Source of the DNA: a virus
IMG/VR virus record: IMGVR_UViG_3300034417_000014
Coordinates: 1-64,000 of that record
Length of the DNA: 64,000 nucleotides
Direction: 5' to 3' (one strand)
In this document: piece by piece, positions 1 to 39,130 of the stretch
Position numbering within the stretch: position 1 is the stretch's first letter
Layout of the letters: the number at the start of each line of letters is the position of its first letter
Made by a program: the position numbers and the translations under genes
The notes under the pieces: generated by a model
The model's input: only the letters and a program-made list of their open reading frames with translations
What the model was told of the DNA's origin: nothing
Database searches by the model: none

Positions 1-128
1 CTAGTATCAACCCTGTACAAATAAACAGGCCCTGTTGGATACATATACAGTAACGAAACGGAACAGTGAAACGGAACTGCATTATAAAACATGCGGGTAA
101 TTTCGCAATCAACACGATACACTGTCAT
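1..128 (-). CDS. Partial member of left paralogue family A (runs off window)
   Basis: ATG at 128 overlaps the TGA of the 125..520 gene; MTVYRVDC...SLLYMYPTGPVYLYRV aligns with its neighbour (TLLHMFF...FLYRV). Confidence 0.65.
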   Translation of the reverse strand, partial: MTVYRVDCEITRMFYNAVPFHCSVSLLYMYPTGPVYLYRVDT

Positions 129-5104: not shown

Positions 5105-5179
5105 GCCACTGAATAAGTATTGTAACTGAAATACGAAACCGCAGCAATATATAAAGAAAAGACAAAAAACCTTAATGAT

Positions 5180-6054
5180 CTATATAGCAATGAACTCTTA
5201 TATACAGTGAATGAGCACGTATACACAATGATTGACTATAAAGAAACAATGTTTGATTGATTTATATATAGTAAAGAAGATGAATAACACGTATACAGCA
5301 CTATATAGAACATTAAAGACACGCTATATAGAGATGGAAACCCGCAAATGATGACTATATACGCACTATACATGATTGGAAACAAACAACTCATGATTGA
5401 CTATATAGTAAAGAACTTGATAGAAGCCGTATACATGCTATATAGTGCATTTAGAACGGTTTGTTATTGGATACGAAAGTGAAGAAAGAAAAGTGAAAAA
5501 CCTTGACTGTCGGTGACACACTCGGCGAACAGGCGCAGTGGCTTACACGCTTACCAGCCATCTTACCTGTTCCAGTTTTATGCCGATAACCTGTTCCACC
5601 CACTGTATAAAACCACAGTGTATACATATACAGTACACCTATTTCAGCCAAAATAACCTGCCAAAATATCCCAACCTCCAAAATCTTTCAAAAGATTCAG
5701 ACCTCCAACTTTTTTCTGCAGGTTTTTTCTGTAGAAATAGTCTGCAGATATTTTTCACAGAGATTTTTCCGCCAAAAACTCTGTCCACTTTTTCAGAACC
5801 TATTCTAATATCACTCACTCAATCTACCATCTCCCACGCATCTCCCAAGTTCCTTACAGCTCCAACTATTCCTGATAGTCCCCACTGCTCTTACAGTTCC
5901 ACTATTATGCGTCCATGTTGCTATATAGTCAATTGAATTCTTTACTATATGTCAGTTCATCATATACGTGTTTGCTATATAGTGTTCCTTCATATAGCGT
6001 ATATAGTGTATATGACTCTTTACTATATAGTGTGTATACTGTGTTGCTATATAG
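5180..6054. repeat. Mirrored clusters of palindromic CTATATAG repeats
   Basis: Exact copies at 5180, 5301, 5324, 5401, 5438 and 5921, 5975, 6023, 6047; 15-bp inverted repeat 5400-5414 / 6017-6031. Confidence 0.85.
5603..5633. promoter_or_regulatory. Tandem LexA (SOS) boxes
   Basis: CTGTATAAAACCACAG (perfect CTGT-N8-ACAG) followed by GTGTATACATATACAG. Confidence 0.6.
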
Positions 6055-6130
6055 TATGAATAATTTAATTATTTCATGTTTACGTGTTAAGCGGAGGATT
6101 AGGAAGGTGAAATGGCTGTTTGATATCAGG

Positions 6131-30780: not shown

Positions 30781-30998
30781 AATTACTCGATCCGTTGCTT
30801 CCCTTCTTGTCAATACACGGAAACACGTACATTGTCAAGTCTGGCCATATTGTTCGGAGCAATGACGTAGACGTTAGCTTCTTTTACGTGGAAGGTCAAC
30901 AGGTCATTGCATACTTTGAGAACGAGCAGGACGGGGCCTACGAGGAAGTTATTCACAGTCTAAGCGTAATAAAAGTATTCGAAAGAGTTGACTTTTAG
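30777..30998 (+). CDS. Hypothetical protein
   Basis: GTGA overlap. Confidence 0.6.
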   Translation: MKLLDPLLPFLSIHGNTYIVKSGHIVRSNDVDVSFFYVEGQQVIAYFENEQDGAYEEVIHSLSVIKVFERVDF

Positions 30999-36604: not shown

Positions 36605-36931
36605 TTAAAAGTTATTTAAAGTAGGTTTGCATTGCAAGTGCGCAAACTGTACAAAATGTGCTGCATACAGCTCTTTTTGGTCGGCTTCGTCGTGGTGGAC
36701 GATTGGGCTAAGCACACTACAAACACTAAACACAGTTTCAAACAGTAGGTCATATTGGTCGCTGGGTAGTTGGTCTATGTACGCTGCAAGTCCCTGGTCG
36801 TAGTGCTGCAAGTATTCTACTAGGGAGCGATCGCAAGCCCACCCGTTAGTAACGACGCTATCCCCTGCTTGCTCCGACATGTTGACAAAGTATACGCTAC
36901 GTGCTATTGCTACGTTTAACAATGCGTCCAT
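36605..36931 (-). CDS. Acidic hypothetical protein, the only well-supported leftward gene in the early region
   Basis: Divergent promoter TTGCAT-16-TATAAT (37012-37039), AAGG RBS, terminator downstream. Confidence 0.7.
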   Translation of the reverse strand: MDALLNVAIARSVYFVNMSEQAGDSVVTNGWACDRSLVEYLQHYDQGLAAYIDQLPSDQYDLLFETVFSVCSVLSPIVHHDEADQKELYAAHFVQFAHLQCKPTLNNF

Positions 36932-37187
36932 TTTTTTGGCCTTTTTTAAAGTAAAATTAAACAACTTTGTTATACAAAACAGCTAGTTGCTTACTGCTTT
37001 GTATGTTGTTTATTATACAGTAATGCAAAAACAATGCAAGCGTTTTTTTGCATTTTTTTGCATTTATTTTCACTTTTCTAGGGAGGCACGCATAAAAAAT
37101 AAAGCAAAATAAAGTAAAATAAAACTTGCAATAAAGTGTAAACGCGCATATAATGTTTACACACAAACAGCAAAGCAGGGCCACAAA

Positions 37188-37358
37188 ATGCAAAACACAA
37201 ATACGCTTAACATACAAGATTTCCAAATCGACCATTCTAAAGTCGCCTGCGCGCATAAGCAAGTAACAAAGCAAAAAAGCATTTTGCGCAAAATTATTGC
37301 TACGCACTATGCACACATTGCACCTCAATGTCAAGCGTATTTAAAAACAATACGTTAA
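37188..37358 (+). CDS. 56-aa protein (not in track), paralogue of 29345..29509
   Basis: MQNTNTLNIQDFQID...YAHIAPQC; promoter TTGCAA-17-TATAAT at 37126. Confidence 0.7.
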   Translation: MQNTNTLNIQDFQIDHSKVACAHKQVTKQKSILRKIIATHYAHIAPQCQAYLKTIR

Positions 37359-37451
37359 AAAATAAAACGCAAGTAGCGTAAAAAACTACTTGCGTTTACA
37401 CTTTAGTCCCAGTATAATGCTTACACACAAACAGCAAAGCAGGGCCACAAA

Positions 37452-38015
37452 ATGCAAAACGCACAACAAGTAGCAAACATTGTAGCAGCTCTTTTAAACA
37501 ACGTGTCAACTACTTTTGCGCAAGTTAGCTATAGCACAAAAGTTGCTACAGCAGCAGCGCACAAAGCTGTAAACATACAAAAACACGTTGTCGCTAACGT
37601 GCAATTGTTTAGCAATATCAAAGCTGCAACAAGCGTTTTTACTAATGCTGTTAAAAAAAGCGCAAGCGCAATTGCAAGCAATAATGCAGAGGACGTAGCA
37701 CAATTTACTGCGCAAAGCAACTACTTTACACACACAAATTGCTATAGCATTGTACAGCATAAAACAAACAACAACTTATACTTATATTGCATATACAACA
37801 ATGTGCAAAGTAGCGTATACACTATTAATAACGTAATTGCAACCAAACAGCAAGTTGCGCAATATTTAACAGCAAGTGCAGCAAAAGCTATGCTAGAGCC
37901 TAGCACAACTGTACACAACAAAGCAAGCAATATAACGCATAACGTAACAGTGCGTACTATTGCACTAAGCAACATTACTAGCATAACTGCAAACAAAGCG
38001 CAAGTTAATTTTTAA
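37452..38015 (+). CDS. 187-aa protein with extreme composition (no Gly or Trp, 1 Asp, 2 Glu, 1 Pro, 1 Arg)
   Basis: Promoter TTGCGT-17-TATAAT at 37390 with the same leader as 37188. Confidence 0.8.
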   Translation: MQNAQQVANIVAALLNNVSTTFAQVSYSTKVATAAAHKAVNIQKHVVANVQLFSNIKAATSVFTNAVKKSASAIASNNAEDVAQFTAQSNYFTHTNCYSIVQHKTNNNLYLYCIYNNVQSSVYTINNVIATKQQVAQYLTASAAKAMLEPSTTVHNKASNITHNVTVRTIALSNITSITANKAQVNF

Positions 38016-38136
38016 CTGTACAAGTGTACAGCACTGTGTATACATACAGTGCTGTGCATGTATACAGTAGTGTATGCCTATACAGTGTACGCCCATACAG
38101 CACTGTACATGTATACAGCACTGTACATGTATACAG
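38016..38136. promoter_or_regulatory. Tandem array of seven LexA (SOS) boxes
   Basis: Perfect CTGT-N8-ACAG at 38016, 38034, 38052, 38103, 38121; GTGT variants at 38070 and 38085; mostly 18-bp period. Confidence 0.8.
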
Positions 38137-38360
38137 TAGTAGCACGTAGCACACAGGAGAGGAGCTGTCAACCAGGACCTATGCGTAGCACACCAAAAAC
38201 AGAAACGCAAGCAAAAAATTAAATTTAATTTGCTTGCAAAGTGGAAAAAAAGGCATTATAATATTTTTATACTAAAGTGGAGATACGGTGAGACCTGGCT
38301 AGAATCCAAAAATGGTGGAATGGCTGGGGGGTAGGCTTGCTGCGCCACTGAAAAACCGTT

Positions 38361-38402
38361 TCCTAATCCTATAGGGCCCAATCCTAATCCTAATCCTATA
38401 GG
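38361..38402. repeat. (AATCCT)n repeats with two CCTATAGG palindromes
   Basis: TCCTAATCCTATAGGGCCCAATCCTAATCCTAATCCTATAGG. Confidence 0.7.
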
Positions 38403-38480
38403 CTACCCTTATAGCATAGCCCTGTGTCAACATTAGACTCACTGTTCTTGGTACACTGCGAAAATTTTTTACTAATTTTT

Positions 38481-38837
38481 ATGGAAACCGTGTATATGCC
38501 TCCTAACGTTAGAATGATCACATTTTATGACAAGTACTCTGAACAACTATCAGCCAAACGTCAAGAGGCTAGAAAACTGTTCCCGCTACTGTTATCCTTA
38601 CATCATATAGCATGGGCGGACCGTCCCCAGTTTCATGAACGTTTCCGGACGCACTACAGGGAAGCGGTTATTAACATTCCGGAAACTTCTGACAACGCTC
38701 CGTTTATACGCTGCAACTCAAAAGAAATTGCCTTTTTACTGTATATGCAGTTTGGCGTAGCATTGTGGGAAGACAGTTCCTTAAACGACACGTATACGTC
38801 AGACCCCAATAATTATCAGGATGGGTCCAAGCTGTGA
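38481..38837 (+). CDS. Hypothetical protein, LK(Y/F)G-like family
   Basis: KEIAFLLYMQFG; start uncertain. Confidence 0.65.
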   Translation: METVYMPPNVRMITFYDKYSEQLSAKRQEARKLFPLLLSLHHIAWADRPQFHERFRTHYREAVINIPETSDNAPFIRCNSKEIAFLLYMQFGVALWEDSSLNDTYTSDPNNYQDGSKL

Positions 38838-39130
38838 AAAATTCCGCGCCACAAACCAGTGTCTATTATTATGTCACTCTCGATGGCTTAAACGACAAAG
38901 TGTTAAGAGAATTCAAGAGTTACTTTTTGGGCGTGTCTCCAATAGCGGCAGCACTAACTGTAAACTGGCAATGGCATTCTCAAGTTGAGGATGAAAATAG
39001 ATATGTGCGTTATGGGAGAATTACTGTCACTGAATCTGACCGCATGTTCTTAAATTTGAAGCACGGTCTTAATGACCCTGACTTTACTAAAAAATGTGCG
39101 GGCTTACTTTACGAACGGGTGTGGTTATGA
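38834..39130 (+). CDS. Paralogue family B (RY.R....E.D.M.L.LK)
   Basis: RYVRYGRITVTESDRMFLNLKHG. Confidence 0.75.
   Translation: MKNSAPQTSVYYYVTLDGLNDKVLREFKSYFLGVSPIAAALTVNWQWHSQVEDENRYVRYGRITVTESDRMFLNLKHGLNDPDFTKKCAGLLYERVWL

What the first reader, a model, noticed from the sequence alone, without database searches (positions are those of the whole stretch)
38016..38136. Seven tandem LexA boxes: possible SOS decoy (repressor sponge)
Seen: immediately after the stop of the stealth gene lie five perfect CTGT-N8-ACAG boxes and two one-mismatch boxes at about 18-bp period. They overlap no obvious promoter; the nearest -35 is about 100 bp downstream at 38234. Established: this is the gamma/beta-proteobacterial LexA operator, and natural promoters usually carry one to three. 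Inference: an apparently lytic phage may titrate LexA as its genome replicates, de-repressing host recA/sulA-type genes, or may use LexA to coat or roadblock DNA near a genome end.
Basis: partly seen in the sequence, partly recalled or inferred. Interest (0 to 1): 0.85.

Follow-up and report, generated by a model that had tools for sequence, protein, structure and literature searches.

The report
Seven-box LexA operator array in phage
A giant phage carries seven tightly packed copies of the DNA site that the bacterial DNA-damage repressor LexA normally binds, placed where its relatives have a transcription stop signal, and similar arrays turn up in several unrelated phages.

Summary
Window 38016-38136 has five perfect CTGT-N8-ACAG boxes and two one-mismatch boxes, an 18-bp tandem repeat. 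Local composition does not explain it. Half-sites are kept while spacers drift (2/56 vs 15/56 departures, p=0.001).

The host is unknown. The contig is about 25% of a jumbo myovirus distantly related to PA5oct.

None of the relatives with sequence after the upstream gene has the array. All 26 distinct relatives have a strong hairpin there, 19 with a T-run. Two have a single box.

Tight arrays of the same motif (16-18-bp period) occur in about five other viral groups that share no protein with this phage. A triple operator with the same 2-bp linkers is conserved in seven Burkholderiales genomes, whose recA and lexA promoters carry the box.

Best reading: a multi-LexA operator acting as an SOS-sensitive transcription barrier that also soaks up LexA. 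Binding is untested. Other palindromes also form arrays in viruses, so a non-LexA binder or a hairpin role remains possible. I found no paper describing such arrays.

The parts
38016..38136 (.). Array of seven 16-bp palindromic boxes. Perfect boxes at 38016, 38034, 38052, 38103 and 38121; one-mismatch boxes at 38070 and 38085. Linkers are 2 bp (CA, TG, TA) except for one 1-base overlap.
37452..38015 (+). Upstream 187-aa gene with almost no D, E, G, P or W and no Pfam or PHROG match. Homologues at 48-74% identity occur in 40 viral or metagenome loci. Its stop codon abuts the first box.
36950..38155 (.). Island nearly free of the dinucleotides GG, CC, GA and TC, the only one in the 89.8-kb record. 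The array is its 3' edge.
38234..38262 (+). Promoter-like site TTGCAA-17-TATAAT about 100 bp downstream of the last box. It precedes a run of ORFs of about 100 aa that share a C-terminal motif.
5603..5633 (.). Second site: one perfect box plus a one-mismatch box overlapping by one base (15-bp spacing, as at 38070/38085). It lies in a repeat-rich stretch at 5105-6060 that shows no convincing gene.
13..50 (.). Third site at the contig start: a perfect box at 13-28 and a related half-site ending at 50. The box at 13-28 is the exact reverse complement of the recA-promoter box of Zwartia hollandica and Sheuella amnicola.

Best explanation
The array is a tightly packed multi-operator for the host SOS repressor LexA of the beta/gamma-proteobacterial type, able to hold up to seven dimers side by side. 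It sits in the transcribed 3' end of an early gene, in the slot where relatives carry a stem-loop terminator.

The most likely action is as a protein barrier. While LexA is plentiful, the loaded array stops RNA polymerase that reads out of the upstream cassette. When LexA is cleaved or diluted over many phage genome copies, the barrier opens and the next cassette is also transcribed from upstream.

Each genome copy removes several LexA dimers from the pool, so some sponge effect follows automatically; its size is unknown.

Shown here: the anatomy, the statistics, the slot shared with terminators, the recurrence of such arrays elsewhere, and the match to host operators.

Inferred: LexA binding, the barrier action and the titration.

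The confidence of 0.4 is for the whole statement. That LexA binds the array at all I put at about 0.6.
For: 1. Motif and selection pattern. TGT and TACAG are invariant in 7 of 7 units, with 6 distinct spacers. Half-site departures are 2/56 against 15/56 in the spacer, p=0.001.

2. Host grounding. The same box lies between the -35 and -10 of recA in two Burkholderiales genomes and upstream of their lexA genes. Zwartia lexA has two boxes with a 2-bp linker.

3. A chromosomal triple operator with 2-bp linkers and diverged spacers is found in 7 of the 29 genome hits, and all 7 are Burkholderiales.

4. Recurrence. The fixed 18-bp triple pattern finds 10 viral loci, 8 of them LexA-like, against 1 locus for each of two control motifs, both plain repeats. 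With linkers of 0-12 nt, all 13 LexA-like loci have periods of 16-18.

5. No shared protein. This contig shares no ORF at E<=1e-5 with those loci or with the complete genome G408. Neither this contig nor G408 has a LexA_DNA_bind or Peptidase_S24 match at E<=1. That favours a host binder.

6. Other paired boxes in the same contig, at 5603/5618 and at 13-50.

7. The slot. 26 of 26 distinct relatives have a strong hairpin after the gene, 19 with a T-run. This phage has no hairpin plus T-run on the + strand in 38011-38424.

8. Literature. LexA is listed among natural RNA-polymerase roadblocks (PMC10310618, passages). A single LacI roadblock leaks against strong promoters (PMC4132739, passages), which gives a reason for several sites.
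Against: - No binding data exist, and the host and its SOS motif are unknown.
- The array is absent from every relative examined: 6 viral loci and their 5 full records, the 32 metagenome loci with downstream sequence, and 4 cultured jumbo phages. It may therefore be a recent and possibly neutral expansion; the last two units are identical.
- Palindromic arrays with conserved ends are not unique to this motif. The gapped control GACA-N8-TGTC gave 23 loci, about half with diverged spacers, mostly at a 22-23-bp period.
- 'Conserved ends, variable centre' is also what a hairpin array would show, and the whole array can fold into a long imperfect hairpin (RNA -77.3 kcal/mol, z -4.2).
- Two of the seven units carry G in place of the first C.
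- Spacers are only 3-6 of 8 A/T.
- In relative L084 the single box is followed by its own terminator, so a barrier is not needed there.
Confidence: 0.4

Rival explanations
1. Pure LexA sponge. The array regulates nothing in cis. As the genome replicates, its sites drain LexA from host promoters and switch on SOS genes such as division inhibitors and recombination functions.
For: Seven sites overlap no promoter. About four further boxes lie in the quarter of the genome in hand. Operator-bound LexA is protected from RecA-stimulated cleavage, so bound repressor is truly sequestered (PMC3159453, passages). From recall, not from a call: E. coli holds on the order of a thousand LexA molecules, so 7-11 sites on a hundred genome copies would be comparable.
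Against: A sponge could sit anywhere, yet the array sits exactly in the terminator slot. In the other phage groups the arrays lie at control regions: a divergent intergenic region, downstream of a promoter, or upstream of terL. No relative has the array. The benefit of switching on SOS is speculative.
Confidence: 0.2
2. Operator or iteron array for another protein, either phage-encoded or a different host factor, that happens to share the CTGT-N8-ACAG ends. Possible roles include a replication origin, a partition site or a phage repressor site.
For: Arrays of other palindromes with diverged centres are common in viral contigs. A CTGTC-N6-GACAG class also exists. Only about 25% of this genome is available, so a binder could be encoded elsewhere. 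An AT-rich stretch follows the array.
Against: No protein is shared between this phage and the other array-bearing phages. The motif equals the host recA/lexA boxes, and the 2-bp linker equals host operators. No DnaA box lies near the array; there are 2 in the window against 4.8 expected, at 30949 and 47146. No replication initiator was recognised nearby.
Confidence: 0.15
3. Nucleic-acid structure element. The array is a multi-hairpin 3' end that replaces the terminator stem-loop, acting as an RNA stabiliser, a processing site or a DNA cruciform. Its likeness to LexA boxes is an accident of the unit that was amplified.
For: The slot holds a strong hairpin in 26 of 26 distinct relatives, 7 of them without a T-run. 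In relative L088 the single box is itself the terminator stem. The array region folds well: RNA z -4.2 and DNA z -3.0.
Against: Single units are weak hairpins (-1.0 to -7.8 kcal/mol), and only 2 of 7 beat most shuffles. The relatives' stems are 6-14 pairs, each with at least 3 G-C pairs. Structure alone does not explain why the same CTGT/ACAG ends recur in unrelated phages at a 16-18-bp period and in host SOS promoters. Rfam gives only generic miRNA-hairpin matches far below threshold.
Confidence: 0.15
4. Recent, functionally neutral slippage expansion of one palindromic unit, either a stray LexA-like box or a terminator stem.
For: The array is absent in all relatives. The last two units are identical. 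Two relatives have just one box at this place.
Against: Six distinct spacers with invariant half-sites argue for age plus selection. The intrinsic terminator has been lost. Analogous arrays are kept within phage group A despite 71% terL identity and different copy number and period.
Confidence: 0.1

Closest known systems
Multi-box LexA operators of SOS genes and colicin genes (E. coli lexA, recN, cka)
   Same: Same 16-bp palindrome. Adjacent boxes are occupied together. 'Tandem' operators are described for colicin K (PMC3159453, passages). The 2-bp-linker arrangement is present at Zwartia lexA and in a Burkholderiales triple operator.
   Different: Those operators have at most three boxes and overlap a promoter. 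Here there are seven boxes with no promoter overlap, at the 3' end of a gene.
LexA co-option by temperate phages (GIL01, CTX, 186-type antirepressor control)
   Same: A phage genome carries host LexA boxes to read the SOS state (PMC9437464, passages; PMC4551915, abstract).
   Different: In those cases the sites are promoter-associated and gate the lysogeny-lysis switch. This phage belongs to a jumbo myovirus lineage. No integrase search was run on it. Array-bearing G408 has no integrase hit. The sites here form a promoter-free array.
Host-regulator sites in virulent phages: Spo0A sites in phi29, CtrA sites in Alphaproteobacteria phages ('lytic deferment')
   Same: Several binding sites for a host global regulator lie in a phage that has no lysogeny, letting it sense host state (PMC9437464, passages).
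   Different: The regulators and the logic differ. Those sites are promoter-associated and are not a phased tandem array.
Protein roadblocks to RNA polymerase (LacI, CodY, CcpA; LexA at uvrA)
   Same: A DNA-bound repressor inside a transcription unit stops elongation. LexA is listed among the natural examples (PMC10310618, passages).
   Different: The known natural examples listed there use one or a few sites. A seven-site array that takes the place of an intrinsic terminator was not found in my searches.
Natural titration arrays such as the DnaA sink datA and the P1 incA iterons (recalled, not checked in any call)
   Same: Clustered binding sites whose job is to hold a regulator away from its other targets.
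   Different: Those arrays titrate the replicon's own initiator. Here a virus would be titrating a host global repressor.

Membership tests
LexA operator (beta/gamma-proteobacterial SOS box) | 16-bp palindrome CTGT-N8-ACAG | tested here: met
   5 of 7 units are perfect and 2 of 7 have one mismatch (C1 to G).
LexA operator (beta/gamma-proteobacterial SOS box) | Extended likeness to real host operators: A before CTGT, T after ACAG, A/T-rich spacer | tested here: inconclusive
   A precedes the box in 6 of 7 units and T follows in 4 of 7. Spacers are 3-6 of 8 A/T. Host operators fetched here have A before and T after in 16 of 18 boxes each, counted by eye. No heterology-index matrix was available.
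LexA operator (beta/gamma-proteobacterial SOS box) | The host's LexA recognises this motif | not testable with these tools
   The host is unknown. The nearest cultured relatives infect Pseudomonas, enterobacteria and also Alphaproteobacteria. Source and holder runs are sediment and soil metagenomes.
LexA operator (beta/gamma-proteobacterial SOS box) | Overlaps or abuts a promoter that it represses | tested here: not met
   The nearest good promoter-like site is about 100 bp downstream, and none overlaps the array.
LexA operator (beta/gamma-proteobacterial SOS box) | Bound by LexA in vitro or in vivo | not testable with these tools
   Needs EMSA, footprinting or ChIP.
Protein roadblock or conditional terminator | Sites lie inside a transcription unit, downstream of a promoter, with no intrinsic terminator before them | tested here: met
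   The first box starts right after the stop codon of 37452-38015. No hairpin plus T-run lies on the + strand in 38011-38424.
Protein roadblock or conditional terminator | Read-through rises when the protein is removed | not testable with these tools
   Needs reporter assays or Term-seq.
Transcription-factor decoy or sponge | High-affinity sites that regulate nothing in cis and are numerous enough to shift the free pool | tested here: inconclusive
   There is no promoter overlap. There are 7 sites plus about 4 more in a quarter of the genome. The exact placement in the terminator slot suggests a cis role. Affinity and copy number are unknown.
Iteron-type replication origin | Direct repeats next to DnaA boxes, an AT-rich unwinding element and an initiator gene | tested here: not met
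   The units are palindromes. No DnaA box lies near. No initiator was recognised in the flanking genes. An AT-rich stretch is present, but it contains a promoter-like site.
Intrinsic terminator or REP-like hairpin array | Stable G+C-containing stems; a T-run for a terminator | tested here: not met
   Unit hairpins are -1.0 to -7.8 kcal/mol with 5-8-pair stems, and there is no T-run. The long composite hairpin is significant but follows from any array of palindromes.

The most novel reading that the evidence does not exclude
Tightly phased LexA-box arrays (3-7 boxes, 16-18-bp period) are an undescribed, recurrent class of phage cis-element. Through them, phages with no sign of lysogeny use the host SOS repressor as a gate or a replication-coupled timer: the array is shut while LexA is abundant and opens when LexA is cleaved or is outnumbered by replicating genomes. 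At the same time the phage population drains LexA from the host regulon.
Probability: 0.3. Interest if true: 0.85.

Novelty: new variant of a known kind. Interest (0 to 1): 0.68.

Why it matters
LexA sites in phages are known as promoter operators that trigger prophage induction. A seven-site, promoter-free array in a jumbo myovirus is a different use of the host SOS repressor, especially alongside similar tight arrays in at least five other viral groups, one of them a complete genome with no integrase hit.

If LexA binds, three consequences follow:
- It would be a natural multi-site roadblock or repressor sink.
- It would give apparently virulent phages a way to sense or manipulate the SOS state.
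- It would be a sequence signature that helps assign uncultured phages to hosts with this LexA box.

The idea is directly testable with standard binding and reporter assays.

Tried and rejected
Stop-codon recoding as the reason for short ORFs: reading TAG, TGA or TAA as sense gave no clean long frames. Dropped.

Nucleotide relatives in cultured phages: none found by megablast or blastn. An exact 22-nt stretch of the array was not found in viral contigs. The downstream 137-aa ORF has no relatives in viral contigs.

Other sequencing runs: only the probable source run X1 covers the array. Contigs of X2, X3 and X4 stop short of it, so nothing can be said about the array in other samples or about habitat.

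Host from the exact recA-type box: it occurs in 6 of 401 sampled genomes of the phylum (reversed control 0), but the output carried no taxon names, so no host call was possible.

Annotation of flanking genes: no Pfam or PHROG family for 37452-38015, 37188-37358, 36605-36964, 38424-38837 or 38834-39130. The Atlas model of the 187-aa protein has pLDDT 0.33 and only sub-0.4 TM matches.

LexA copy number: not stated in PMC5999292. The figure I use is recalled.

Poisson estimate for single boxes after the gene in relatives: 2 observed against 0.04-0.08 expected. This overstates significance, because gene 3' ends are enriched in palindromes. The L088 box is simply the terminator stem and could be chance.

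First control result: 1 locus each for two motifs at a fixed 2-bp linker. I had read this as showing that only the LexA motif forms diverged arrays. The gapped control corrected that. Only the tight 16-18-bp packing is specific.

Literature: searches found no paper describing tandem LexA-box arrays, LexA decoys or LexA roadblock arrays in phages. Papers seen as passages only: PMC4132739, PMC10310618, PMC3159453, PMC5999292, PMC9437464. All others were seen as search listings or abstract starts.

Rows dropped before counts:
- One search used 32 of the 34 metagenome loci (L066 and L067 have no downstream sequence), dereplicated to 23 by the first 60 nt.
- One search used those 32 plus L005 and L007-L010 (L006 is identical to L005), with loci under 60 nt of downstream sequence excluded, giving 26 distinct by the first 50 nt.
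- The sorting of the 29 genome hits (7 Burkholderiales operators; one further diverged palindromic array, L027, in an Anaerolineaceae MAG; the rest near-identical or G+C-rich repeats) and of the viral hits was done by eye.

Full report
WHAT IS THERE

Window 38016-38136 holds seven 16-bp palindromic units directly after the TAA stop of a 187-aa gene (37452-38015). Five units are perfect CTGT-N8-ACAG boxes, at 38016, 38034, 38052, 38103 and 38121. Two read GTGT...ACAG, at 38070 and 38085, and overlap by one base. Linkers are 2 bp: CA, TG or TA. Tandem Repeats Finder reports the same stretch independently, with period 18 and 6.3 copies.

The window has 8 perfect boxes against 1.43 expected, and 0 of 100 shuffles reach 8. 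The whole 89,846-base record has no further boxes, and the reversed control finds none.

IS IT A COMPOSITION ARTEFACT?

The array is the 3' edge of an island of about 1.2 kb (roughly 36950-38155) that almost lacks the dinucleotides GG, CC, GA and TC. It is the only such island in the record. Markov chains trained on the island give 21-22.5 boxes per Mb, against 28.5 per Mb for contig-wide composition. The island's restricted composition therefore does not favour the box.

Because this is a tandem repeat, the five boxes are one event amplified. The units have nevertheless diverged. There are 6 distinct spacers among 7 units, while TGT and TACAG never vary. Half-site departures are 2/56 against 15/56 in the spacer (Fisher p=0.001).

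WHOSE GENOME?

The record is an uncultured virus fragment that CheckV puts at 25% complete. It carries tail-fibre and baseplate genes and a 3766-aa ORF. Its baseplate wedge protein is 39% identical to the Pseudomonas phage PA5oct group and about 30% identical to Rak2-like, Salicola and Agrobacterium jumbo phages. The host is unknown. The likely source run is a sediment metagenome.

No LexA_DNA_bind or Peptidase_S24 domain is encoded in the record at E<=1. The flanking genes have no family assignment.

RELATIVES

The upstream gene has homologues in 6 viral-collection loci (49-71% identity) and 34 metagenome loci (48-74%). None has an array after the gene. The five full viral records of the relatives have only scattered boxes: 1, 2, 8, 0 and 0. 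Four cultured jumbo relatives (PA5oct, GAP32, SCTP-2, A4) have no two perfect boxes within 30 nt.

Where this phage has the array, all 26 distinct relatives have a strong hairpin, and 19 of these have a T-run. This phage has no hairpin plus T-run on the + strand between 38011 and 38424.

Two relatives have one perfect box in that place. L084 has a full 8+8 palindrome 11 nt after the gene, followed by its own terminator. L088 has a box that forms the terminator stem. My Poisson figure for this (2 observed against 0.04-0.08 expected) is too optimistic, because palindromes are common at gene ends.

OTHER SITES IN THE SAME PHAGE

At 5603-5633 a perfect box and a one-mismatch box overlap by one base. 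This is the same 15-bp arrangement as the two middle units of the array, and it lies in a repeat-rich stretch at 5105-6060 where I saw no convincing gene. An earlier first-reader note pointed me to it.

At 13-50, at the contig start, a perfect box is followed by a related half-site.

IS THE MOTIF REALLY THE LexA BOX?

I grounded this in sequences fetched here, not in recall.

A scan of one genome per prokaryote species for three boxes at the 18-bp period gave 29 loci. By eye, 7 are operators with diverged spacers and TA/TG/CA linkers, and all 7 are Burkholderiales by record title: Zwartia, Sheuella, and Alcaligenaceae, Burkholderiaceae and 'beta proteobacterium' MAGs. They lie in one conserved intergenic region next to a 52-aa ORF with a hydrophobic tail. 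One further diverged palindromic array, L027, is in an Anaerolineaceae MAG. The rest are near-identical or G+C-rich repeats.

In Zwartia hollandica and Sheuella amnicola the box lies between the -35 and -10 of recA and upstream of lexA. Zwartia lexA has two boxes with a 2-bp linker. The recA box of both species is the exact reverse complement of the phage box at 13-28. That 16-mer occurs in 6 of 401 sampled genomes of the phylum, but the output carried no taxon names, so it gives no host call.

The seven-unit consensus, the consensus of the other viral arrays and the Burkholderiales operator consensus agree in the core and in the A before and T after it.

RECURRENCE IN OTHER VIRUSES

The fixed 18-bp triple pattern found 10 viral loci. 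Eight are LexA-like arrays of 3-5 boxes, and two are plain repeats. Two control motifs gave 1 locus each, both identical-unit repeats.

Allowing linkers of 0-12 nt gave 26 loci. All 13 LexA-like loci are tight, with periods of 18, 17 or 16. Longer periods belong to plain repeats or to a different CTGTC-N6-GACAG motif.

By shared ORFs the LexA-like loci form about five groups:
- A: G408, L012, L097, L102, L103
- B: L016, L018, L020
- C: L013, L014
- D: L019
- E: L109, L111

This contig shares no ORF with any of them at E<=1e-5.

G408 is a complete 37.7-kb genome with terminal repeats. All six of its boxes are clustered. Four lie in the divergent region between the replication arm and the structural arm. 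Two lie 1.4 kb upstream of terL. It has no integrase, LexA-like or S24 match.

In groups A-D, the four groups I annotated, an array lies 0.7-1.4 kb upstream of terL. In L020 a promoter-like site lies just before the boxes. Within group A the position is kept while copy number (2 against 5) and period (18 against 17) change, at 71% terL identity.

Group B's nearest cultured relative infects a Methylophilales bacterium (43.5% terL identity).

L109 carries two units almost identical to this array's two degenerate middle units.

A CAVEAT I FOUND LATE

The gapped control palindrome GACA-N8-TGTC also gave 23 viral loci. About half have diverged spacers, mostly at a 22-23-bp period. Arrays of palindromes with conserved ends are therefore a general feature of viral DNA and do not in themselves point to LexA.

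What is specific to CTGT-N8-ACAG is the tight 16-18-bp packing: none of the 23 control loci is both that tight and diverged. The other specific features are the identity with host SOS operators and the lack of any shared phage protein.

STRUCTURE-BASED RIVALS

The array with its flanks folds into a long imperfect hairpin (RNA -77.3 kcal/mol, z -4.2; DNA z -3.0), as any array of palindromes must. Single units are weak, at -1.0 to -7.8 kcal/mol. Rfam gives only generic miRNA-hairpin hits far below threshold. No DnaA box lies nearby.

MECHANISM

I think the array is most likely a multi-LexA operator (about 0.6).

Its exact placement in the terminator slot, inside a transcribed 3' end and about 100 bp before the next promoter, fits a protein barrier better than classical promoter occlusion. 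LexA is a listed natural roadblock (PMC10310618, passages). Single roadblocks leak against strong promoters (PMC4132739, passages), which would explain stacking seven sites.

Operator-bound LexA is not cleaved via RecA (PMC3159453, passages). A loaded array would therefore open only as free LexA falls and bound LexA dissociates. That gives a delayed, threshold-like response to SOS or to rising genome copy number. A sponge effect is an automatic by-product, and I cannot tell whether it matters.

All of this paragraph is inference.

COMPARISON WITH WHAT IS KNOWN

Described SOS genes have one to three operators at promoters. Known phage uses of LexA are promoter sites in temperate phages (PMC9437464, passages; PMC4551915, abstract). 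The nearest concept for virulent phages is Spo0A sites in phi29 and CtrA sites in Alphaproteobacteria phages. Six literature searches found no description of tandem LexA-box arrays, decoys or roadblock arrays in phages. Supplements and subscription journals were not searchable.

VERDICT

The LexA-box reading is supported by comparative evidence but is unproven. The sponge idea is possible but is not the best-placed explanation. I classify the array as a new variant of a known kind, with an interest score of about 0.68.

Noticed in passing
window 36950-38155: An island nearly free of GG, CC, GA and TC, covering two genes, their promoters, a hairpin and the array. It is the only one in the 89.8-kb record. 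Sequence after the homologous gene in relatives looks similar by eye.
   Followed up: partly
window 37126-37200 and 37395-37465: The two island genes (37188-37358 and 37452-38015) have near-identical promoter-leader-start segments. GG and CC appear almost only at the AGGG ribosome-binding site.
   Followed up: no
window 5105-6060: About 950 bp with no convincing gene. Many CTATATAG-type repeats sit in two arms around a core that holds the overlapping double box and other short repeats. It could be a control region or an origin.
   Followed up: partly
L022:4676-4925, and likewise L032, L038, L039, L043, L045, L048: A conserved Burkholderiales intergenic region with three LexA-type boxes at 2-bp linkers, next to a 52-aa ORF with a hydrophobic C-terminus and no Pfam match. 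The ORF is a candidate SOS-controlled small membrane protein.
   Followed up: partly
L114, L117, L118, L125-L129, L133 (viral contigs): Arrays of 3-4 GACA-N8-TGTC palindromes with diverged centres at a 22-23-bp period. They were found with my control motif and look like an operator or iteron class for an unknown protein.
   Followed up: no
L099, L104, L108, L110 (viral contigs): Arrays of four CTGTC-N6-GACAG palindromes with A/T-rich linkers of 5-10 nt. This motif class is distinct from the LexA-like one.
   Followed up: no
L056:7475-7560 (G408): Three direct repeats of a 22-nt unit directly follow the two-box cluster, in a non-coding stretch of about 1 kb upstream of the terminase genes. It may be a packaging or control region.
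   Followed up: no
window 38270-38430: A long leader after the 38234 promoter-like site holds an AATCCT x3 repeat (38380-38398). The 137-aa ORF that follows has no relatives in viral contigs and no family match, so this may be non-coding RNA.
   Followed up: no
window 36605-36964 (- strand): A plausible 119-aa gene lies on the minus strand inside an otherwise plus-strand block. Minus-strand terminator-like hairpins sit at 36590-36558 and 37397-37365.
   Followed up: no
L027:515-566: An Anaerolineaceae MAG contig has three perfect-palindrome CTGT-N8-ACAG boxes with GC linkers and diverged centres. It is the one non-Burkholderiales genome hit that is not a plain repeat.
   Followed up: no
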